Below, piece after piece: positions 1,077-11,202 of a stretch of 64,000 nucleotides of DNA. The stretch is taken from the NCBI RefSeq assembly GCF_050920415.1, contig NZ_CP169309.1. One strand, written 5' to 3'. Source of the stretch: Escherichia coli (GTDB lineage: Bacteria > Pseudomonadota > Gammaproteobacteria > Enterobacterales > Enterobacteriaceae). A program made the position numbers and the translations under genes. Each line of letters starts with the position of its first letter. Position 1 is the first letter of the stretch. The notes below the pieces were generated by a model. The model did not search any database and was not told the origin of the DNA. It saw only the letters and a list, made by a program, of their open reading frames with translations.

Positions 1077-1439
1077 TTGATGGGGATAGAATTTGTTTTG
1101 CCTTACCCGCCGACGGTAAATACCTACTGGCGTCGTCGTGGCAGCACATATTTTGTATCAAAAGCAGGGGAGCGTTATCGCCGGGATGTGGCGCTTATTG
1201 TTCGCCAGCAGCGGCTGAAATTAAATCTGTCCGGAAGGCTGGCAATAAAAATTATTGCAGAGCCACCGGATAAGCGCCGTCGTGACCTGGACAATATTCT
1301 GAAAGCACCACTGGATGCACTGACACATGCGGGACTGCTTATCGACGACGAGCAGTTTGATGAAGTTAATATTATGCGCGGTCAGGTTGTTCCCGGTGGT
1401 CGGCTGGGGATAAAAATCACAGAACTGGAGTGCGCATGA
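1077..1439 (+). CDS. rusA: RusA crossover junction endodeoxyribonuclease (Holliday junction resolvase)
   Basis: 120-aa translation recognisably matches the RusA family; typical nin-region position upstream of Q. Confidence 0.9.
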   Translation: MMGIEFVLPYPPTVNTYWRRRGSTYFVSKAGERYRRDVALIVRQQRLKLNLSGRLAIKIIAEPPDKRRRDLDNILKAPLDALTHAGLLIDDEQFDEVNIMRGQVVPGGRLGIKITELECA

Positions 1440-2101
1440 ATAACCAGTATTTACAGTTTGTGCGTGAGCAGCTCACGATCGCCACCGCTGATTTGAGTGG
1501 AGCAACAAAAGGTCAGCTTGAAGCCTGGCAGGAGAATGCCATGTTCAATACAGGGCGTTACAGACGTAAAAAAATCCGGTACCGCGATAAGGTCACTGGA
1601 AAAATAGTAACGCTGGATAATCCACCGATCCCGGGAAAGCAATCGCTGGCGAAAGGTTCATCAATTGCCCTGGTCAGTCCGGTTGAGTTTTCGACATCAT
1701 CATGGCGACGCGCCGTTCTGTCTCTTGAAGAACATCATAAAGCCTGGCTGCTGTGGTGTTACAGCGGTAGCATTTGCTGGGAGCATCAGATCGCGATAAC
1801 GCAGTGGGCGTGGATTGAATTTAATGCTCAATCCGGTACCAGAAAAATTGCAGGAAAAACTCTGGTGCGCCTGAAGACGTTGAGCTGGTTGGCGGCGCAG
1901 GCGGTAAAAGCTGAGCTTTTTGGTGGGGAAGGTTACGAATACCAGGAACTGGCGTTACTGGTGGGAGTAACAACCAAAAACTGGTCCAAGACATTTACTG
2001 GTCACTGGGTTGCAATGAAACACATTTTTCATCGGCTGGATAGTGAAGCTTTATTGTTAGTGGAGAGAACACGTTCAAAACAAAAGGCGGCATTTTCATA
2101 G
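1430..2101 (+). CDS. Putative late-gene antiterminator (Q-family by position)
   Basis: 223-aa ORF immediately upstream of a promoter plus short-transcript terminator (pR'/tR' arrangement) and the late region; assignment by synteny, sequence not confidently recognised. Confidence 0.45.
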   Translation: MRMNNQYLQFVREQLTIATADLSGATKGQLEAWQENAMFNTGRYRRKKIRYRDKVTGKIVTLDNPPIPGKQSLAKGSSIALVSPVEFSTSSWRRAVLSLEEHHKAWLLWCYSGSICWEHQIAITQWAWIEFNAQSGTRKIAGKTLVRLKTLSWLAAQAVKAELFGGEGYEYQELALLVGVTTKNWSKTFTGHWVAMKHIFHRLDSEALLLVERTRSKQKAAFS

Positions 2102-2108
2102 CAAAGTA

Positions 2109-2137
2109 TTGCAAAAGTAGATTAAAACGCATATATT
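2109..2137 (+). promoter_or_regulatory. pR'-like late promoter (TTGCAA -17 bp- TATATT) immediately after the Q-like stop
   Basis: -35 TTGCAA at 2109-2114, 17-bp spacer, -10 TATATT at 2132-2137. Confidence 0.4.
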
Positions 2138-2188
2138 TCGTGTAAATCTGATATTTTGCCGTTTTTATACGTGATGGCAAAGCTAGTA

Positions 2189-2214
2189 AAACCCGCGACC
2201 GAGCGGGTTTTTTA
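2189..2214 (+). terminator. tR'-like rho-independent terminator (aaacccgc-gaccga-gcgggttt + T-run)
   Basis: Perfect 8-bp stem, 6-nt loop, followed by T-run; about 50-70 nt downstream of the pR'-like promoter, as for lambda 6S RNA. Confidence 0.6.
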
Positions 2215-2287
2215 TCCCCCCAAAAAATGGCATAGACATTAAACGTGATGACGATTGTGCCAATACTTTCTCCATCAATGACGCCCC

Positions 2288-2317
2288 TTGACTGCATGGA
2301 ATCCAATTTGTTATGTA
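2288..2317 (+). promoter_or_regulatory. Candidate sigma70 promoter for the moron membrane-protein gene (TTGACT ... TGtTATGTA)
   Basis: Consensus-like -35 TTGACT at 2288-2293; extended -10-like TGnTATGTA about 18 bp downstream; lies after tR' and before the ATG at 2356. Confidence 0.3.
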
Positions 2318-2355
2318 ATATGTGTTGATATTTTTGAGTTGTTAATGGTGTTACT

Positions 2356-3069
2356 ATGAATGACAGTGCTCTGCTCAGAAACTCTTCACTTTTTGTTGCT
2401 TATATGGGCTGTCTAGGATGGGGAAGCGCTTATTTCTATGGATGGGGTACTTCATTTTACTATGGCTTTCCATGGTGGGTTGTCGGGGCTGGTGTCGATG
2501 ATGTTGCACGAAGTTTGTTTTATGCTGTGACAGTTATCGTTATATTCCTTATTGGATGGGGAGTTGGTATTGTTTTCTTTTTGGGCATAAAACAAAAGCG
2601 CAATATACAAAATTTGAGTTTTATCCGGCTTTTTCTCGCGATATTGCTGCTTTTTATTCCACCTGTTCTGGAGTTTTCGGTAATTCATCAGCATGTTGAG
2701 CCAGATGTACTGATTTTCTGCATTCTTGCTGCCTTTACAATCACGCTTTTTGTCAGGTCTGGAAGAAGACTTGTTTCAGTCAAATGTTTTTCGGAAATGT
2801 CTTTTATTCGCCATCACCGAATTGAGTTCATGATGGCTGGGTTTATGATTTATTTCTGGGCATTCTCTCTTATTGCCGGTTGGTACAAACCACAGTTTAA
2901 GAGGGAATATCAGGCGATCCACTATGAGAATGTATGGTATTACATTATTGCGCGTTATGATGATCGTCTGGTGTTATCGAAATCATACAGGAGTGGGGGT
3001 AAGAAATTCGTTATATTTAATAGCGGAAATATTAATGATTTTGAAATTAATACTATCAGAGTGCGTTAA
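2356..3069 (+). CDS. Uncharacterised integral membrane protein (about 4 predicted TM helices, Trp/Tyr/Gly-rich N-terminus, about 60-aa soluble C-terminal tail); moron
   Basis: 237-aa ORF, AT-rich codon usage unlike flanking phage genes, hydrophobic segments visible in translation; no family recognised. Confidence 0.7.
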   Translation: MNDSALLRNSSLFVAYMGCLGWGSAYFYGWGTSFYYGFPWWVVGAGVDDVARSLFYAVTVIVIFLIGWGVGIVFFLGIKQKRNIQNLSFIRLFLAILLLFIPPVLEFSVIHQHVEPDVLIFCILAAFTITLFVRSGRRLVSVKCFSEMSFIRHHRIEFMMAGFMIYFWAFSLIAGWYKPQFKREYQAIHYENVWYYIIARYDDRLVLSKSYRSGGKKFVIFNSGNINDFEINTIRVR

Positions 3070-3243
3070 AATTTCTTGAGTAATGAAGATTTTTACTGCC
3101 CGGCATTGAGCGGTTTTTTTATGCCAGAAAAATGGTGTGGTACATAAAATGTGCTGGTGGTTATTAATACCGGTCTTTCAGCTTGCTGGCTTTTTCGACA
3201 AGAGTTATTGGTATGTCACGTTAACCAATAAAGAGAAAAAGAC

Positions 3244-3441
3244 ATGCTAAAACAGCAGGATATGACCGAAACAGCCAGAGTGGTGTTTAATGAATTAAGC
3301 GTCACTGAACCGGCAACAGTTGGGGAAATTGCGCAGAATACTTACCTTTCACGCGAACGCTGCCAGTTAATACTGACCCAGCTTGTGATGGCGGGTCTGG
3401 CAGATTATCAGTTCGGTTGTTACAGACGCCTTCCGCAGTGA
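3244..3441 (+). CDS. Small (65 aa) putative winged-helix/HTH DNA-binding protein
   Basis: Helix-turn-helix-like segment (ATVGEIAQNTYLSRERCQLILTQLVMAGLA); own rho-independent terminator overlapping the stop. Confidence 0.45.
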   Translation: MLKQQDMTETARVVFNELSVTEPATVGEIAQNTYLSRERCQLILTQLVMAGLADYQFGCYRRLPQ

Positions 3442-3452
3442 AGGCTTTTTAC
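3428..3452 (+). terminator. Rho-independent terminator (gccttc-cgcagt-gaaggc + TTTTT)
   Basis: 6-bp perfect stem plus T-run overlapping the stop of the 65-aa ORF. Confidence 0.5.
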
Positions 3453-3591
3453 TTTGTGGTAATGGGCGGCTGGTGGGTGTTAGCGGCACCTGCCAGCCAT
3501 CTGCTCATGTGTTGAGGTCACAAGCAAACCTCAGGCCCATCTGCTTTGCGCAAAAGCGGTATGAGCCTATCAGAGAAGTGCTTATTGATCT

Positions 3592-4677
3592 ATGGCTAAT
3601 ACTGTAAAAATATCCAGTTGTGAGTTAATCAACACTGATTGCCTGGAATTTATCCAGACCTTATCGGAAAACTCTGTCGATCTTATAGTCACAGACCCGC
3701 CATATTTTAAAGTGAAGCCCGAGGGCTGGGATAACCAGTGGAAGGGCGACGATGATTACCTAAAATGGCTGGACCAGTGTCTGGCTCAGTTCTGGCGGGT
3801 ACTGAAGCCTGCCGGAAGTCTTTACCTGTTTTGTGGTCATCGCCTGGCATCTGATATCGAAATCATGATGCGTGAGCGCTTTAATGTGCTGAACCACATT
3901 ATCTGGGCGAAGCCGTCCGGACGCTGGAACGGGTGCAACAAAGAAAGCCTGCGGGCGTATTTCCCGGCAACAGAGCGCATTCTGTTTGCCGAACATTATC
4001 AGGGGCCATATCAGCCAAAAAATGCCGGCTATGCGGCAAAGGAGCGCGAGCTTAAACAACACGTCATGGCCCCGCTGATTTTTTACTTTCGTGATGCGCG
4101 TGAATCACTGGGAATAACGTCCAAACAGATAGCGGAAGCCACCGGAAAGAAAAACATGGTGTCGCACTGGTTTGGTACCAGTCAGTGGCAGTTACCGAAC
4201 GAAGCTGATTACAGAAAACTGCAGGCGCTGTTCGCGCGTGTTGCAGAAGAAAAACACCAGCGTGGGGAGCTGGCAACGCCACACCAACTGCTGGTCAGCA
4301 CATACAGTGAACTGAACCGGCAATATGCCAGTCTGCTTGAGGAATACAAATCTCTGCGGCGTTATTTTTCTGTATCGGCCGCCGTTCCTTATACGGATGT
4401 CTGGACGCATAAGCCCGTACAGTATTATCCGGGTAAGCATCCCTGCGAAAAACCGGCGGATATGTTGCGTCAGATAATTTCTGCCAGCAGTCGTCCGGGG
4501 GATGTGGTTGCGGATTTTTTTATGGGATCGGGGGCAACAATAAAAGCAGCAATGGGATTGGGGCGTCGCACGATTGGGGTTGAACTTGAGTCCGGGCGTT
4601 TTGAACAAACAGTTGGTGAAATATTGGTGCTGAACGATAAATTGCGAAATGCACAATTAGATAAGAACAGGAGCTAA
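3592..4677 (+). CDS. DNA methyltransferase, beta-class (N6-adenine or N4-cytosine); apparently orphan
   Basis: Motif IV DPPY near N-terminus (LIVTDPPYF), motif I FxGxG-like (DFFMGSGAT) near C-terminus; no restriction endonuclease ORF adjacent. Confidence 0.85.
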   Translation: MANTVKISSCELINTDCLEFIQTLSENSVDLIVTDPPYFKVKPEGWDNQWKGDDDYLKWLDQCLAQFWRVLKPAGSLYLFCGHRLASDIEIMMRERFNVLNHIIWAKPSGRWNGCNKESLRAYFPATERILFAEHYQGPYQPKNAGYAAKERELKQHVMAPLIFYFRDARESLGITSKQIAEATGKKNMVSHWFGTSQWQLPNEADYRKLQALFARVAEEKHQRGELATPHQLLVSTYSELNRQYASLLEEYKSLRRYFSVSAAVPYTDVWTHKPVQYYPGKHPCEKPADMLRQIISASSRPGDVVADFFMGSGATIKAAMGLGRRTIGVELESGRFEQTVGEILVLNDKLRNAQLDKNRS

Positions 4678-5197
4678 TCCTCGATTAATATCTAAGCCAA
4701 GCAGGATGCTTGGAAGTTCTGATATATTCTTATCGTTTTTCGGTATTTAAAACTGATTTTCGCTGGTTGCGAAAGCACGTGGTCGGGCACTGCGTTCACA
4801 CATGCAGGAGGGTGTGAAGTCAGCTTTTTTTCTGTGTATTCAGATGGCGTTCTGATTCTATAACGAGTTACGTGGACATCAGGGATGGAGAGAATAGGAA
4901 CGCCATCTTAATACATTTTCCCCGTTTATTTGATATATCTTCCGGATAAGGGATTAGGTCTGGTTTTTTATGTCATTCAATAACGCTCTTCTATACTGTA
5001 TACAATACTTTATCCTGGCAGTGTGTTTAAAACCTGAACTTATCCTTTGTTTCGTTTATAGACAGAAGGGTTAATATCGACTTATCATCAGCAGGATGGC
5101 AACAGATGTGTAAGCAGCTGGTCACCAGTTATACTTCAGTGGTACTTCTGAGTGCTTCTCTCCGTGAAATGATTATCATCCAGATGACAGGAGTAGA

Positions 5198-5476
5198 GTG
5201 AATATTGATGATATTTCCAGGTGCTCCAGCTTGTTGCAGCGTATTGAGGATGTTAATGCTGAACGAGCCAGGGCCTTTAGTCGTTTGACAGTTATATTTT
5301 CTACCCCTGATCGCCTTTCAGGAAAGAACATTGTTTTATTAAACAGTGATGCCATCCATAAGGTTTTTGAAGAGTTCATGGCTGCTAATTCAGAATTGCT
5401 GGCTCTTGTTGAGGAATACAACGAGATAGCCAGCCGTGTCGGTATGGATGAATTCAACGTCATACTTCGTGGATAA
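5198..5476 (+). CDS. Hypothetical protein (92 aa), GTG start with AGGAG RBS
   Basis: ORF preceded by AGGAG at 5187-5191 and followed by a strong terminator. Confidence 0.45.
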   Translation: MNIDDISRCSSLLQRIEDVNAERARAFSRLTVIFSTPDRLSGKNIVLLNSDAIHKVFEEFMAANSELLALVEEYNEIASRVGMDEFNVILRG

Positions 5477-5499
5477 AAACATGCTTCATATTTTCTGTT

Positions 5500-5524
5500 A
5501 GCTCGCTACGGCGAGCTTTTTTTG
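5500..5524 (+). terminator. Rho-independent terminator (agctcgc-tacg-gcgagct + T-run)
   Basis: 7-bp perfect stem, tetraloop, T-run of 8. Confidence 0.65.
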
Positions 5525-5657
5525 TATCTGAGCCACACCTGGCGCACATCAAAAACACAGAGCCTTTCAGGAGGTGCTTACGGGATTGTCAGTGTGACTT
5601 TCACTGTGGGCTGGTAACCATCTGGCGCAGGCTCGTCTACGCAAAGGAAAAGTCACG

Positions 5658-6083
5658 ATGTTAGGTATTTTCAAAAAGAAAACCCGCAAGGCCATCACAG
5701 AAGTGAAGAAGATGGAGAACCGTGATGCGGTGGAGGCGACCGTCTGGGGCGCATATTCCATTGCATATGCCGACGGCACCTGCGATGCGAAAGAAATCGC
5801 AGTACTGGAGAAAACTATTGCTGCGCTTCCTGCTTTTGCACCGTTCTCTGGTGAGATTGCCCAGATGAGCGCCAATATCCGCGCCCGTTATGAAGCGTCA
5901 CCGCGTAGTGCGAATGCGCATGCATTGCGTGAGCTGGCTGATGTGGCGGGGACAACTGAGGCGGTTGACGTGCTTTGCCTCTGTCTGGATATCGCTGATC
6001 AGGATGGCATTGGTCCGGATGAAGAAGCGCAGCTCAAGAAAATTGCACAGGCGCTTCAGTTACCACTGGAGCAGTATCTGTGA
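5658..6083 (+). CDS. TerB-like (tellurite-resistance TerB / DjlA N-terminal domain family) protein
   Basis: 141-aa helical protein whose acidic C-terminal motif (LCLCLDIADQDGIGPDEEAQLKKIAQAL) is typical of TerB-domain proteins. Confidence 0.55.
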   Translation: MLGIFKKKTRKAITEVKKMENRDAVEATVWGAYSIAYADGTCDAKEIAVLEKTIAALPAFAPFSGEIAQMSANIRARYEASPRSANAHALRELADVAGTTEAVDVLCLCLDIADQDGIGPDEEAQLKKIAQALQLPLEQYL

Positions 6084-6232: not shown

Positions 6233-6317
6233 ACAGCCTACAAAAGGTATCTGCGGGTACCTTTGATAAAGTTTTTTAGGGCCGCTGATGGTCCTTTTTA
6301 TTTACAGGAGAATAAAT

Positions 6318-6710
6318 ATGTCTGAACCCTTATCCGGTTCCGGCACTGCTGTGGCGCTCGGCGGGGCGACGGTATTCGGGCTGTTTACCGGGACGGATTT
6401 CGGGATTGTATTTGGTGCGTTCGCTGGTGCGTTATTTGTGGCAACAATGCCGCAGACACTTTCAGCCTGGCGTGTGGCTGCACATTTTCTGGTGTCCTTT
6501 ATTGTTGGTGTGCTTGGGGCCCGTGGTGTGGCCGGTTACATGGCGGAACGTATTGGGTTTAACAGTGCTTCCGTTGATGCGTTGTGTGCGGTCCTGGTGT
6601 CGGTGCTCTCAGTAAAAGTCCTGTCATTCATCCACCAGCAGGAGATTACATCACTGGTATCCGGTCTGTTCTCCCGTCAGCGTGGAGGAGGTGGTGGTAA
6701 TGACAAATAA
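6318..6710 (+). CDS. Putative holin (multi-TM membrane protein, Gly-rich C-terminus)
   Basis: ATG at 6318 preceded by AGGAG; about 3 hydrophobic helices; lies upstream of the endolysin. Confidence 0.55.
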   Translation: MSEPLSGSGTAVALGGATVFGLFTGTDFGIVFGAFAGALFVATMPQTLSAWRVAAHFLVSFIVGVLGARGVAGYMAERIGFNSASVDALCAVLVSVLSVKVLSFIHQQEITSLVSGLFSRQRGGGGGNDK

Positions 6711-6978
6711 TCTTCCAGGATTACTGAATGCGGCGTTATGTACGGTTATCGTACTGACGCTTTTTTTCTACCGCAGAAAAGAGTCCCGACACAAACCGCT
6801 GATATCGTGGTGCGCCTGGTGTCTGATGCTGTTGTATGCGATAACGCCGTTAAGTTATCTCTGTGGTCATCCGTTGCCGGCAGACTGGCTGGTAGTGATG
6901 CTGAACCTGGTGTTTGGTGTCATGGTAGTGCGTGCGCGCGGTAATGTTTCAAAAATTTTTGCTTTCCTGAGTGGCTGA
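6700..6978 (+). CDS. Putative holin/antiholin-like small membrane protein
   Basis: 92-aa hydrophobic protein (start MTNNLPGLL) overlapping the preceding gene's end and the endolysin start. Confidence 0.5.
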   Translation: MTNNLPGLLNAALCTVIVLTLFFYRRKESRHKPLISWCAWCLMLLYAITPLSYLCGHPLPADWLVVMLNLVFGVMVVRARGNVSKIFAFLSG

Positions 6979-7525
6979 TATGAAATCGAGAGATGAAATT
7001 TTTGATGAAATCCTCGGAAAAGAGGGGGGGTATGTCAGTCATCCTGACGATACAGGCGGAGCGACGAAGTGGGGAATTACTGAAAAAGTGGCGCGCGCGC
7101 ATGGTTACCGTGGTGATATGCGTGATTTGAGCCGCGGGCAGGCTCTGGAAATCCTTGAGGCAGACTATTGGTATGGACCTCGTTTTGACCAGGTGGCAAA
7201 CCTGTCTCCTGATATTGCTGCAGAACTGTGTGATACCGGGGTAAACATGGGGCCGTCGGTAGCCACAAAAATGCTTCAGCGCTGGCTGAATGTGTTTAAT
7301 CAGAAGGGAATGCTGTATCCGGACATAGTTACAGACGGGGGGATCGGGCCGCGAACCATTAATGCGTTACGTTCTTATCTGAAAAATCGCGGCAGGGATG
7401 GCGAACTGGTACTGGTGAAAGCCCTGAACTGTACGCAGGGTGAGCGTTATCTGGCGCTGGCAGAGAAACGCGAGGCTAACGAGTCGTTTGTCTATGGCTG
7501 GATGAAAGAGCGCGTTGGTTTATAA
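6971..7525 (+). CDS. Endolysin, glycoside hydrolase family 108 with C-terminal peptidoglycan-binding domain
   Basis: N-terminal EILGKEGGYVSHPDDTGGATKWGI motif characteristic of GH108 lysozymes. Confidence 0.85.
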   Translation: MADMKSRDEIFDEILGKEGGYVSHPDDTGGATKWGITEKVARAHGYRGDMRDLSRGQALEILEADYWYGPRFDQVANLSPDIAAELCDTGVNMGPSVATKMLQRWLNVFNQKGMLYPDIVTDGGIGPRTINALRSYLKNRGRDGELVLVKALNCTQGERYLALAEKREANESFVYGWMKERVGL

Positions 7526-7558: not shown

Positions 7559-7726
7559 ATTGTTCAAAAAACGAAAGAACGGAGGTACGTATGTACGCAC
7601 TGAAAAAGATTACGGTAACTGAAGATGGTCGTCAGTAGACTGGCCCCCTGAATCTCCAGACAACCAGTATCACTTAAATAAGTGATAGTCTTAATACTAG
7701 TTTTTAGACTAGTCATTGGAGAACAG

Positions 7727-8092
7727 ATGATTGATGTCTTAGGGCCGGAGAAACGCAGACGGCGTACCACACAGGAAAAGATCGCAATTGTTCAGCAGAG
7801 CTTTGAACCGGGGATGACGGTCTCCCTCGTTGCCCGGCAACATGGTGTAGCAGCCAGCCAGTTATTTCTCTGGCGTAAGCAATACCAGGAAGGAAGTCTT
7901 ACTGCTGTCGCCGCCGGAGAACAGGTTGTTCCTGCCTCTGAACTTGCTGCCGCCATGAAGCAGATTAAAGAACTCCAGCGCCTGCTCGGCAAGAAAACGA
8001 TGGAAAATGAACTCCTCAAAGAAGCCGTTGAATATGGACGGGCAAAAAAGTGGATAGCGCACGCGCCCTTATTGCCCGGGGATGGGGAGTAA
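7727..8092 (+). CDS. insC: IS2 transposase OrfA (InsC)
   Basis: Translation [41 protein letters not shown]... matches IS2 InsC. Confidence 0.9.
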
Positions 8093-8955
8093 GCTTAGTC
8101 AGCCGTTGTCTCCGGGTGTCGCGTGCGCAGTTGCACGTCATTCTCAGACGAACCGATGACTGGATGGATGGCCGCCGCAGTCGTCACACTGATGATACGG
8201 ATGTGCTTCTCCGTATACACCATGTTATCGGAGAGCTGCCCACGTATGGTTATCGTCGGGTATGGGCGCTGCTTCGCAGACAGGCAGAACTTGATGGTAT
8301 GCCTGCAATCAATGCCAAACGTGTTTACCGGATCATGCGCCAGAATGCGCTGTTGCTTGAGCGAAAACCTGCTGTACCGCCATCGAAACGGGCACATACA
8401 GGCAGAGTGGCCGTGAAAGAAAGCAATCAGCGATGGTGCTCTGACGGGTTCGAGTTCTGCTGTGATAACGGAGAGAGACTGCGTGTCACGTTCGCGCTGG
8501 ACTGCTGTGATCGTGAGGCACTGCACTGGGCGGTGACTACTGGCGGCTTCAACAGTGAAACAGTACAGGACGTCATGCTGGGAGCGGTGGAACGCCGCTT
8601 CGGCAACGATCTTCCGTCGTCTCCAGTGGAGTGGCTGACGGATAATGGTTCATGCTACCGGGCTAATGAAACACGCCAGTTCGCCCGGATGTTGGGACTT
8701 GAACCGAAGAACACGGCGGTGCGGAGTCCGGAGAGTAACGGAATAGCAGAGAGCTTCGTGAAAACGATAAAGCGTGACTACATCAGTATCATGCCCAAAC
8801 CAGACGGGTTAACGGCAGCAAAGAACCTTGCAGAGGCGTTCGAGCATTATAACGAATGGCATCCGCATAGTGCGCTGGGTTATCGCTCGCCACGGGAATA
8901 TCTGCGGCAGCGGGCTTGTAATGGGTTAAGTGATAACAGATGTCTGGAAATATAG
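8050..8955 (+). CDS. insD: IS2 transposase OrfB (InsD), DDE integrase-type
   Basis: 301-aa translation matches IS2 InsD; overlaps insC in the -1 frame as in IS2. Confidence 0.9.

Positions 8956-9236: not shown

Positions 9237-11202
<1,966 letters not shown>

What the first reader, a model, noticed from the sequence alone, without database searches (positions are those of the whole stretch)
3592..4677. Orphan beta-class DNA methyltransferase carried as phage cargo
Motif order (DPPY N-terminal, FxGxG C-terminal, large intervening target-recognition region) indicates a beta-class N6A/N4C methyltransferase. No endonuclease gene is adjacent, so it is either an anti-restriction self-protection methylase or the modification half of a system whose effector is unrecognised, possibly the upstream membrane or wHTH gene.
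Basis: partly seen in the sequence, partly recalled or inferred. Interest (0 to 1): 0.5.

Follow-up and report, generated by a model that had tools for sequence, protein, structure and literature searches.

The report
Prophage M.EcoGII-type non-specific adenine methylase
The gene is an intact copy of a well-known prophage enzyme family (M.EcoGI/M.EcoGII) that methylates adenines in any DNA sequence, so the enzyme is ordinary; the less ordinary part is the conserved control cassette around it, which includes a structured, possibly antisense RNA element not found in Rfam or the papers searched.

Summary
ORF 3592-4677 (+) encodes a 361-aa beta-class amino-methyltransferase (Pfam PF01555, E 4.7e-42), with DPPY at residues 35-38 and FMGSG at 310-314. 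The protein is about 86% identical, target-recognition domain included, to M.EcoGII. M.EcoGII is the characterised non-specific N6-adenine methyltransferase of E. coli prophages. So there is probably no recognition motif to find.

The gene is common: 1886 of 5426 complete E. coli genomes carry it. It always lies in the late operon of lambdoid prophages, between antiterminator Q and the lysis genes. That is the slot that holds stx in Stx phages.

It is not half of a hidden restriction system:
- The upstream membrane gene is linked in only 8 of 80 close loci.
- The 65-aa winged-helix protein has no catalytic domain.

Most likely role (inferred): the gene is silent in the lysogen, is transcribed late after induction, and methylates progeny DNA broadly against restriction.

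One thing appears undescribed. The gene sits in a conserved cassette: terminator, wHTH gene, terminator, then a ~115-nt element with compensatory base changes. That element is absent from Rfam and is found only upstream of these methylase genes. It pairs better on the antisense strand and sits next to an extended -10-like motif.

The parts
1430..2101 (+). Late-gene antiterminator Q. It marks the start of the late operon that contains the methylase.
   Evidence: PHROG 304 'anti-termination protein Q-like', E 2.9e-104. RefSeq annotation of the identical region calls it the same.
2109..2213 (+). pR'-like promoter (TTGCAA-17-TATATT, 2109-2137) followed by a tR'-like intrinsic terminator (CCCGC GACCGA GCGGG plus T6, 2192-2213).
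   Evidence: Promoter scan. Hairpin and T-run read directly from the sequence. Weak isrJ-like Rfam match at 2141-2212, below the gathering score. The function is inferred from position.
2356..3069 (+). 237-aa multi-pass membrane protein. It is a variable 'moron' in the slot between Q and the cassette and is not a partner of the methylase.
   Evidence: PHROG 1521, unknown function. No NCBIfam or PADLOC match. Present near the methylase in only 8 of 80 close loci. In phiP27 the same slot holds a PD-Lambda-1-like GIY-YIG protein instead.
3098..3120 (+). T1: remnant of the terminator hairpin plus T-run that precedes the wHTH unit in all variants. The stem is degenerate in this window.
   Evidence: Alignment of 53 non-redundant wHTH upstream regions. 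Window sequence.
3182..3219 (+). Conserved ~40-nt block (CTTGCTGG..GACAAGAGTTATTGGTATGTCAC) between T1 and the wHTH start. It is a candidate promoter or operator of the wHTH gene.
   Evidence: It is conserved across clades whose flanks are unrelated. The function is inferred.
3244..3441 (+). 65-aa stand-alone winged-helix (wHTH) protein, the most constant neighbour of the methylase.
3428..3455 (+). T2: intrinsic-terminator-like hairpin (GCCTTC CGCAGT GAAGGC) overlapping the wHTH stop codon, followed by TTTTTACTTT. It insulates the methylase from non-antiterminated transcription.
   Evidence: Terminator scan. A hairpin is found at this place in 25 of 52 non-redundant leaders: + oriented in 17, - oriented in 10, 2 of them in both orientations.
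3444..3597 (.). Conserved structured element (core about 3461-3557). It is a three-way junction: P0 (TGGGC/GCCCA) encloses the long hairpins P1 and P2, and hairpin P3 follows. It is either the 5' leader of the methylase mRNA or, more likely, a cis-antisense RNA read from the - strand.
   Evidence: Covariance model R1 finds one hit in the 64-kb window (127.5 bits, E 7e-29). It finds one hit per locus, always ending at the methylase ATG, in 64 of 78 divergent loci. 88% of cells are paired against 33-42% for slid controls, and 19 pairs show changes on both sides, 0 of 500 shuffles reaching that. A.C cells outnumber G.U cells 97 to 41, and in P2 70 to 8. RNAalifold gives -36.2 kcal/mol on the - strand against -27.5 on the + strand. 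No Rfam match on either strand. 116 of 117 pattern-found copies lie 51-55 nt upstream of such a methylase gene.
3564..3572 (-). TGATAGGCT on the - strand, matching the extended -10 pattern TGnTAnnnT. It is the candidate promoter of the antisense RNA, with a predicted start near 3557 at the base of hairpin P3.
   Evidence: Present in 110 of 119 unique leaders at a fixed 19 nt from the ATG. Variation is confined to the 'n' position (all four bases occur) and one inner position. There is no transcript evidence.
3592..4677 (+). Beta-class N6-adenine DNA methyltransferase of the M.EcoGI/M.EcoGII family, intact. The last ~17 residues differ from other family members.
   Evidence: PADLOC MTase_II PDLC03265, E 2e-152. 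RefSeq WP_000024338.1 'DNA-methyltransferase'.
6288..7525 (+). Lysis cassette (two holin-family genes and a GH108 endolysin) that closes the Q-to-lysis interval holding the methylase.
   Evidence: RefSeq annotation of the identical region. NCBIfam holin-associated muramidase match.

Best explanation
ORF 3592-4677 encodes an intact member of the M.EcoGI/M.EcoGII family. These are beta-class, SAM-dependent N6-adenine methyltransferases whose four-helix-bundle TRD does not read sequence, so adenines are methylated in essentially any context.

The gene belongs to the late operon of a lambdoid prophage. In the lysogen it is kept silent for three reasons: late transcription needs Q, at least two terminators (tR' and T2) lie upstream of it, and a dedicated structured element, probably an antisense RNA, lies just before it.

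After induction, Q-modified RNA polymerase reads through the terminators. The enzyme then methylates replicating phage DNA before packaging. Progeny DNA therefore enters the next host already protected against restriction systems that adenine methylation blocks.

Shown here: the family membership, the intact motifs, the late-operon position, the conserved cassette, and the lack of a linked nuclease. Taken from the literature on close relatives: the non-specific activity, the toxicity of constitutive expression, and the silence in lysogens. Inferred: the timing of expression and the anti-restriction benefit.
For: - Identity: 86% over 345 aa to M.EcoGII (sequence from PMC11551740, Suppl. Table S1). 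86% over 344 aa to the phage 1720a-02 methylase, which PMC5778455 names as a close relative. The N-terminal catalytic part is 127/134 identical and the TRD 63/78.
- Motifs: DPPY and FMGSG are intact.
- Literature on relatives: M.EcoGII methylates up to 99% of dA, is deleterious when expressed constitutively, and is silent in the lysogen (PMC5778455). M.EcoGI and its ST131 and O111 homologues are also reported as non-specific and inactive in culture (PMC4659465, PMC6602927). Reconstructed ancestors of the family remain largely sequence-independent (PMC11551740).
- Context: Q, then a pR'/tR'-like site, then the cassette, then the lysis genes, all on one strand. In the 80 close loci the flanks recovered are consistent with the same position: Q-region genes upstream in 63 and holin genes downstream in 58. 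stx2 lies directly downstream of the methylase in phiP27 and 1720a-02.
- Insulation: T2 lies between the wHTH gene and the methylase.
- Abundance: 1886 of 5426 complete E. coli genomes, up to 5 copies each.
Against: - No activity, expression or methylome data exist for this allele.
- The TRD differs from M.EcoGII at 15 of 78 positions, so some sequence bias cannot be excluded.
- The C-terminal 17 residues are unique to this allele, and the DNA from 4590 onward has no match in the phage collection.
- This prophage carries IS2 and an IS21-family element between the endolysin gene and bor, and a near-identical prophage has a frameshifted portal gene. The gene may therefore never be used in this host.
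- In the literature I could search, nobody has shown that virion DNA of such phages is hypermethylated or protected.
Confidence: 0.78

Rival explanations
1. It is a site-specific orphan methyltransferase that acts in the lysogen as an epigenetic regulator, as Dam, CcrM or YhdJ do. It would have a defined motif that a methylome comparison would reveal.
For: It has a beta-class fold with a large TRD that contains an HTH-like segment (weak HTH_3 match at residues 167-193). The closest NCBIfam models are YhdJ-like and CcrM. RefSeq names some relatives 'site-specific DNA-methyltransferase'.
Against: NCBIfam scores fall far below the curated cut-offs: 110 against 292 for YhdJ-type and 70 against 830 for CcrM. 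The protein is 86% identical to an enzyme shown to be non-specific, and the TRD aligns without gaps. Homologues are silent in culture. Two terminators lie upstream of the gene.
Confidence: 0.07
2. It is the modification half of an unrecognised defence or restriction system whose effector is the upstream membrane protein or the wHTH protein.
For: The wHTH gene is tightly linked: 78 of 78 close loci, and still about 55% of loci at 55-70% methylase identity. The slot just upstream can carry defence genes, for example a PD-Lambda-1-like protein in phiP27.
Against: The membrane gene is linked in only 8 of 80 loci. The wHTH protein is 65 aa with no nuclease or other catalytic domain. Neither matches a PADLOC family convincingly. 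The methylase often occurs without the wHTH gene, and M.EcoGII alone is fully active (PMC5778455). Methylation of all adenines cannot mark self against non-self at specific sites.
Confidence: 0.04
3. It is a decaying remnant. The gene is intact by chance in a defective prophage, and the altered C-terminus has inactivated it.
For: The last ~17 residues are unique and the downstream 520 bp has no match in the phage collection. IS2 and an IS21-family element sit in the lysis-to-bor region. A near-identical prophage has a frameshifted portal gene.
Against: The reading frame is full length and every conserved motif is kept. C-terminal tails vary naturally in the family..QDLIV..QDLVSQNG..IKNIC..IRALTGE. 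The same allele is 97-100% conserved in several genomes and viral contigs.
Confidence: 0.08

Closest known systems
M.EcoGII and M.EcoGI (E. coli O104:H4 C227-11 prophages; GenBank EGT69837.1 for M.EcoGII; Murray et al. 2018, PMC5778455)
   Same: Beta-class order (DPPY, TRD, FxGxG). About 86% identity over 345 aa, including the TRD. Same size class (349 against 361 aa). Carried on a prophage. The family is described as 'very large' in E. coli prophages, and it includes the phage 1720a-02 enzyme, to which the window protein is also 86% identical.
   Different: 15 of 78 TRD residues differ. The C-terminal tail is different and 12 aa longer. This allele's activity has not been tested.
Alpha-class promiscuous phage adenine methylases (Hia5, Hin1523, Nma1821; Drozdz et al. 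2012, as cited in PMC5778455)
   Same: They are prophage-borne, adenine-specific and nearly sequence-independent, and they are presumed to counter restriction.
   Different: The motif order is opposite (FxGxG N-terminal, DPPY C-terminal) and there is no sequence relationship. This is an analogue, not a relative.
YhdJ and CcrM-type beta-class orphan methylases
   Same: Same Pfam family (PF01555) and the same catalytic core. They are the best NCBIfam neighbours.
   Different: They are site-specific (ATGCAT, GANTC). Scores fall far below the family cut-offs, and the TRD is unrelated.
Cis-antisense RNA control of toxic or timing-critical phage and R-M genes (lambda OOP/cII, P22 sar/ant, antisense RNAs of EcoRI-type R-M systems; from my own knowledge)
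   Same: A short structured RNA appears to be encoded opposite the 5' region of a gene whose untimely expression is harmful. There is a promoter-like motif and a 5' hairpin.
   Different: No transcript has been shown here and the strand assignment rests on wobble-pair asymmetry. There is no sequence or Rfam relationship to any of these RNAs.

Membership tests
Beta-class N6A/N4C amino-methyltransferases (Pfam PF01555) | The catalytic motif IV (D/S-PP-Y/F) lies N-terminal to the SAM-binding motif I (FxGxG), with the TRD between them. | tested here: met
   DPPY at residues 35-38 and FMGSG at 310-314. PF01555 E 4.7e-42 over residues 29-340. Two-stretch matches to solved beta-class enzymes.
Beta-class N6A/N4C amino-methyltransferases (Pfam PF01555) | The enzyme is active as a dimer. 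| not testable with these tools
   Reported for M.EcoGII by size exclusion (PMC11551740). The interface residues named there (97-110 and 116-140) are nearly all identical in the alignment.
M.EcoGI/M.EcoGII family of non-specific adenine methylases | Full-length similarity, including the TRD, to a member whose activity has been characterised. | tested here: met
   295/345 identical to M.EcoGII with only 2 gap positions, both in the C-terminal third and probably from machine reading of the published sequence. TRD residues 160-237 are 63/78 identical. 295/344 identical to the phage 1720a-02 enzyme.
M.EcoGI/M.EcoGII family of non-specific adenine methylases | The gene lies in a lambdoid prophage. 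| tested here: met
   The relatives lie in Stx and other lambdoid phages.
M.EcoGI/M.EcoGII family of non-specific adenine methylases | The enzyme methylates adenine independently of sequence context. | not testable with these tools
   Known for M.EcoGII and M.EcoGI (PMC5778455, PMC4659465). Here it is inferred from 86% identity.
M.EcoGI/M.EcoGII family of non-specific adenine methylases | The gene is transcriptionally silent in the lysogen. | not testable with these tools
   The position downstream of Q/tR' and of T2 is consistent with silence. No expression data exist.
Type II restriction-modification system (modification subunit) | A cognate endonuclease gene is adjacent. | tested here: not met
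   No nuclease domain in any neighbouring ORF. The upstream gene varies among 80 loci.
Type II restriction-modification system (modification subunit) | An Xre-type controller (C) protein with a C-box is present upstream. | tested here: not met
   The small upstream protein is a winged helix of the ArsR/MarR/TrmB type, not an Xre-type HTH.
YhdJ / CcrM orphan regulators (NCBIfam equivalogs NF008572, NF050803) | The score exceeds the curated whole-protein cut-off. | tested here: not met
   110.2 bits against a 292 cut-off, and 70 bits against 830.
Known RNA families (Rfam 15) | The upstream structured element matches a curated covariance model. | tested here: not met
   No match at E up to 1 in window 1900-5700, and none at E up to 0.1 in six divergent loci, both strands searched.
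Cis-antisense regulatory RNA | A conserved secondary structure is supported by compensatory changes. | tested here: met
   19 of 31 pairs show changes on both sides. 88% of cells are paired against 33-42% for slid controls, with 0 of 500 shuffles reaching the observed values. I derived the structure from these same sequences, which is a caveat.
Cis-antisense regulatory RNA | The RNA has its own promoter and a transcript on the strand opposite the target gene. | tested here: inconclusive
   An extended -10-like TGnTA(G/A)GCT occurs in 110 of 119 leaders, and wobble asymmetry favours the - strand. There is no clear -35, terminator orientation is mixed, and no RNA data exist.

The most novel reading that the evidence does not exclude
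M.EcoGII-family methylase genes come with their own control cassette, which appears undescribed. Its centre is a ~115-nt RNA with a three-way junction, transcribed antisense to the methylase leader from an extended -10 promoter (TGnTAGGCT). A GATC site lies in its -35 region and an adenine at its -11 position. In the best-sampled clade there is also a lysogen-expressed 65-aa winged-helix regulator between two terminators. Together these would set a threshold that keeps a genome-wide, toxic adenine methylase off in the lysogen and lets it fire only in the late lytic burst. Because adenines lie in the antisense promoter, the methylase could feed back on that promoter, making the circuit sensitive to methylation.
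Probability: 0.35. Interest if true: 0.55.

Novelty: already known. Interest (0 to 1): 0.3.

Why it matters
The enzyme needs no new explanation. It is a natural allele of M.EcoGII, which is sold commercially and widely used for chromatin and RNA footprinting. It shows that about a third of complete E. coli genomes carry such a gene in prophages, silent in the relatives examined so far. This corrects the expectation that a REBASE or methylome search would yield a motif. Lysogen methylomes will probably show nothing, which should not be read as inactivity.

What might matter is how a cell tolerates a gene whose product methylates every adenine. The conserved terminators, the winged-helix gene and the covarying element that looks antisense offer a concrete, testable answer. 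They could also supply a compact natural off-switch for people who express EcoGII-type enzymes. Whether progeny phage DNA is in fact hypermethylated, and which defences that defeats, is still untested.

Tried and rejected
- tRNA scan of the whole window. In Stx phages tRNA genes and stx follow this methylase, but none was found here.
- Rfam scans of the region and of six divergent loci. Nothing matched at the element. The only nearby hit was a weak isrJ-like match at the pR'/tR' site.
- Prophage sRNA literature (AgvB/AsxR and the Pas sRNAs). Those genes lie elsewhere, near the esterase, holin or lpxR genes, and are not this element.
- A literal search of papers for the element's sequence. It turned up four papers; none concerns an RNA, and in the one phage-related paper the match is probably a primer, which I did not check.
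- PADLOC and NCBIfam searches for the membrane and wHTH proteins as possible effectors. No convincing match.
- RNAalifold on the raw MAFFT alignment. It gave a muddled consensus because the hairpin loops were misaligned, so I replaced it with a hand-registered structure and a covariance model.
- A sigma-70 promoter for the antisense RNA inside the first codons of the methylase. Only 8/12 matches with poor spacing were found (and my own reading), so I rejected it in favour of the extended -10 motif at 3564-3572.
- Low synonymous variation in codons 1-10. It is compatible with that idea but equally with ordinary constraints on translation initiation.
- Orientation of the hairpin left of the element as a test of strand. 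The result was mixed: 17 + oriented and 10 - oriented.
- The 520-bp gap downstream of the methylase. No match in the phage collection.
- Fang et al. 2012, the original M.EcoGI/GII report. It is not held in the library, so statements about it are taken from papers that cite it.
Full report
**1. Observation**

Pfam assigns N6_N4_Mtase (PF01555) over residues 29-340 with E 4.7e-42. DPPY lies at residues 35-38 and FMGSG at 310-314. The catalytic motif therefore precedes the SAM-binding motif, with an insert of about 170 residues between them. That is the beta-class order. Solved beta-class enzymes (M.RsrI, CcrM, M1.MboII, DpnA/HpyAVI and 8urk/9c3u) match in two stretches on either side of the insert. 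No neighbouring ORF has a nuclease domain.

**2. What the enzyme is**

The decisive comparison is with M.EcoGII. Its sequence is printed in Supplementary Table S1 of PMC11551740, machine-read and with a few evident misreads. The window protein is 295/345 identical to it, with 2 gap positions that lie in the C-terminal third. Identity is 127/134 in the N-terminal catalytic part and 63/78 in the four-helix-bundle TRD, residues 160-237 (domain limits from PMC11551740).

An independent and clean anchor gives the same figure: 295/344 identical to the methylase of phage 1720a-02. Murray et al. name that enzyme as a very similar relative of M.EcoGII (PMC5778455). [quoted passage not shown] It has the canonical beta order and no extra domain. 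It methylates up to 99% of dA in any context, as well as ssDNA and RNA, it is deleterious when expressed constitutively, and it is silent in the lysogen.

M.EcoGI and its homologues in ST131 and O111 strains are likewise reported as non-specific and inactive in culture (PMC4659465, PMC6602927). Reconstructed ancestors of the family remain largely sequence-independent.

NCBIfam places the window protein far below the cut-offs of the site-specific relatives: YhdJ-type 110 against 292 bits, CcrM 70 against 830. DPPY rather than SPPY fits adenine rather than cytosine; that point rests on my own knowledge.

My conclusion is that this is an M.EcoGI/GII-family non-specific N6-adenine methylase. The large central region is a DNA/RNA-binding module, not a sequence reader.

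**3. How common it is**

Megablast of the ORF finds it in 1886 of 5426 complete E. coli genomes, up to five copies per genome and almost always chromosomal. The protein search lists relatives at 75-92% identity in Citrobacter, Klebsiella, Salmonella, Cronobacter, Enterobacter, Pantoea and others. At the level of 50% clusters, 293 clusters score E 1e-30 or better, and many align end to end down to about 35-45% identity.

**4. Context**

The window is a lambdoid prophage at the rspB locus. An identical region is annotated in NZ_CP169399. The order on the + strand is:
- DUF968, RusA and Q (1430-2101; PHROG 304);
- a pR'-like promoter at 2109-2137 and a tR'-like terminator at 2192-2213;
- the membrane gene, the wHTH gene and the methylase;
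- a 520-bp gap, a 92-aa ORF, TerB, two holins and a GH108 endolysin.

In 80 close loci from viral contigs the flanks recovered fit the same position. DUF968, RusA or a Q gene lie upstream (63, 62 and 22+27 loci) and holin genes lie downstream (58 loci). In phiP27 and 1720a-02, tRNA genes and/or stx2 follow the methylase directly.

This is the classical moron slot of the late operon, which is transcribed from pR' only when Q allows read-through. That is established knowledge for stx, and here it is inferred from position.

**5. Is anything nearby an effector?**

The membrane gene is present near the methylase in only 8 of 80 loci. It has no NCBIfam or PADLOC match and belongs to a PHROG of unknown function. 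In phiP27 the same slot holds a GIY-YIG protein that matches the PD-Lambda-1 defence family. The slot is therefore a variable cargo site, independent of the methylase.

The wHTH gene is different:
- It lies at a fixed -348 in 78 of 78 loci that have upstream sequence.
- It accompanies 82 of 82 methylases at 85% identity or more, 39 of 46 at 80-85%, 19 of 32 at 75-80%, and 43 of 75 at 55-75%.
- 41 nucleotide alleles encode only 15 protein variants, so it is under purifying selection.

**6. A conserved cassette**

Alignment of the regions upstream of the wHTH gene shows, in clades whose flanks are otherwise unrelated, the same three features in order. First a terminator hairpin with a T-run (T1), then a conserved ~40-nt block, then a ribosome-binding site and the start codon. 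T1 is degenerate in this window (3098-3120). The conserved block is at 3182-3219.

The wHTH stop codon overlaps a second terminator-like hairpin, T2, at 3428-3455. The unit therefore reads: T1, block, wHTH, T2, element, methylase. Two or three terminators between pR' and the methylase explain how a toxic gene can stay silent without Q. That step is inference.

**7. The element upstream of the methylase**

The ~150 nt before the ATG are as conserved as coding DNA in every locus with a methylase at 75% identity or more, whether or not the wHTH gene is present. They remain recognisable down to about 57% identity.

In 43 non-redundant leaders I registered four helices:
- P0, TGGGC/GCCCA, invariant;
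- P1, a 12-bp hairpin;
- P2, a 9-bp hairpin;
- P3, a 5-7-bp hairpin.

On that alignment 85.9% of cells pair, against 78.5% in shuffles and 30-42% when partners are slid. 17 pairs change on both sides, and 0 of 500 shuffles reach that number.

A covariance model built from it finds exactly one hit in the 64-kb window (3444-3597, 127.5 bits). It finds one hit per locus, always ending at the methylase ATG, in 64 of 78 divergent loci. On that second alignment 88.2% of cells pair and 19 pairs show changes on both sides. Up to four pair types occur at single positions, for example UA 23, GC 13, AU 10, CG 1.

There are two caveats. I derived the structure from these sequences, and the second alignment is fitted to the model.

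A DNA pattern for the element alone recovered 119 matches in viral contigs. Of these, 116 lie 51-55 nt upstream of an M.EcoGII-family start codon, one is at a contig end, and two are GC-rich chance matches. Rfam 15 has nothing like it on either strand. Neither the prophage sRNA papers I read nor a literal sequence search identify it.

**8. Which strand?**

Read on the methylase strand, the helices contain 97 A.C/C.A cells but only 41 G.U cells. In P2 the counts are 70 against 8. P2 therefore pairs in 94.1% of cells on the minus strand and in 79.4% on the plus strand. RNAalifold gives -36.2 kcal/mol for the reverse complement against -27.5 for the sense strand. The core folds more stably on the minus strand in 43 of 47 sequences. 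In the window's own sequence, P2 is an uninterrupted helix of about 10 bp with three G.U pairs on the minus strand and has three mismatches on the plus strand (my reading). The minimum-energy fold of 3557-3422 reproduces the junction.

The most conserved 'single-stranded' segment reads TGnTA(G/A)GCT on the minus strand in 110 of 119 unique leaders, at a fixed 19 nt from the ATG. All four bases occur at n. This is the extended -10 pattern TGnTAnnnT, and it would place a start at about 3557, the first base of hairpin P3. A conserved GATC then falls in the -35 region.

Several points count against a firm call. There is no convincing -35. The flanking hairpin is + oriented in 17 leaders and - oriented in 10. 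P0 has nine U.G pairs on the plus strand. There is no transcript evidence.

My estimates are: a real functional structured element, about 0.8; a cis-antisense RNA, about 0.45; a sense-strand leader, about 0.3.

**9. Mechanism proposed**

In the lysogen, pR' transcripts stop at tR'. Any read-through, and any transcription of the wHTH unit, stops at T2. Residual sense leader would be neutralised by the antisense RNA, if it exists.

After induction, Q-modified polymerase ignores the terminators and sense RNA outruns the antisense RNA. The methylase start region has no canonical Shine-Dalgarno sequence. The conserved UGAUC before the AUG is complementary to the GAUCA at the 3' end of 16S rRNA, which is an inference. 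On that reading, translation would be modest. The enzyme then methylates adenines across replicating phage DNA, and also host DNA in a cell that is about to lyse, before packaging.

The benefit is protection against Type I, Type III and many Type II systems in the next host, as Murray et al. proposed. The cost is sensitivity to m6A-dependent nucleases.

None of the steps after 'family membership' has been tested for this allele. I also found no study showing hypermethylated virion DNA for such phages.

**10. State of this copy**

The reading frame and motifs are intact. The last 17 residues differ from all listed relatives, whose tails also vary. Homology to phage records ends at about window 4604, and 4590-5200 has no match in the phage collection.

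IS2 (7682-8955) and an IS21-family element (9237-11202) sit between the endolysin gene and bor. A near-identical prophage has a frameshifted portal gene. This prophage may therefore be unable to complete a lytic cycle, in which case the methylase is latent cargo here.

**11. Verdict**

The finding is real but ordinary. Novelty: already known. Interest is 0.3, kept above the floor only because of the conserved control cassette and the candidate antisense RNA, which appear undescribed and are directly testable.

Noticed in passing
window 3444-3597 (core 3461-3557), both strands: A covarying three-way-junction element lies directly upstream of the methylase start. It is absent from Rfam and, in the sample examined, is found only upstream of M.EcoGII-family genes. 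It pairs better on the antisense strand, with an extended -10-like TGATAGGCT at 3564-3572 on the - strand.
   Followed up: partly
window 3244-3441, with 3098-3120 and 3182-3219: The 65-aa winged-helix gene is almost invariant in protein sequence and lies at a fixed -348 from the methylase in all close loci. It is preceded by its own terminator remnant and a conserved ~40-nt block, so it may be a separate transcription unit, possibly expressed in the lysogen.
   Followed up: partly
L001 (phage phiP27) 3652-4881: In phiP27 the slot between Q and the wHTH-methylase cassette holds a 409-aa GIY-YIG protein that matches the PD-Lambda-1 defence family (E 2e-89). In the window the same slot holds a membrane protein of unknown function. 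The slot looks like a swap site for defence or moron genes.
   Followed up: partly
window 2109-2213: A pR'-like promoter and a tR'-like terminator lie just after Q. A weak match to the Salmonella sRNA isrJ (23 bits against a gathering score of 37) covers the short transcript they would make. This recalls the short pR' RNAs of other lambdoid prophages.
   Followed up: no
window 4678-5197: A 520-bp stretch after the methylase has no ORF of 40 aa or more in this direction, no tRNA gene and no match in the phage collection. It sits where Stx phages carry tRNA genes and stx. Homology to phage records ends inside the methylase 3' end, at about 4604, which gives this allele its unique 17-aa tail.
   Followed up: partly
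window 7682-8955 and 9237-11202: IS2 (TnpA and TnpB above the NCBIfam cut-offs) and an IS21-family element (IstA and IstB) are inserted side by side between the endolysin gene and bor, where Rz/Rz1 would be expected. The prophage is probably defective for lysis or later functions.
   Followed up: partly
window 3592-3621 (methylase codons 1-10): Synonymous-site diversity across 84 non-redundant homologues is about one third of the gene average in the first ten codons (0.47 against about 1.3 bits). This suggests an overlapping constraint, either on translation initiation or on the antisense promoter region.
   Followed up: partly
loci L189, L195, L196, L209, L220, L226 (methylases about 65-67% identical): One clade of homologues has a shorter and different leader that keeps only a P1-like hairpin and lacks the TGnTAGGCT motif, with the wHTH gene at about -290 to -300. 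The control region has therefore been remodelled at least once.
   Followed up: no
window 5658-6083: A TerB-family ('tellurite resistance') gene lies between the methylase and the holins. It recurs in 24 of 80 related loci and is another frequent passenger of this late-operon interval.
   Followed up: no
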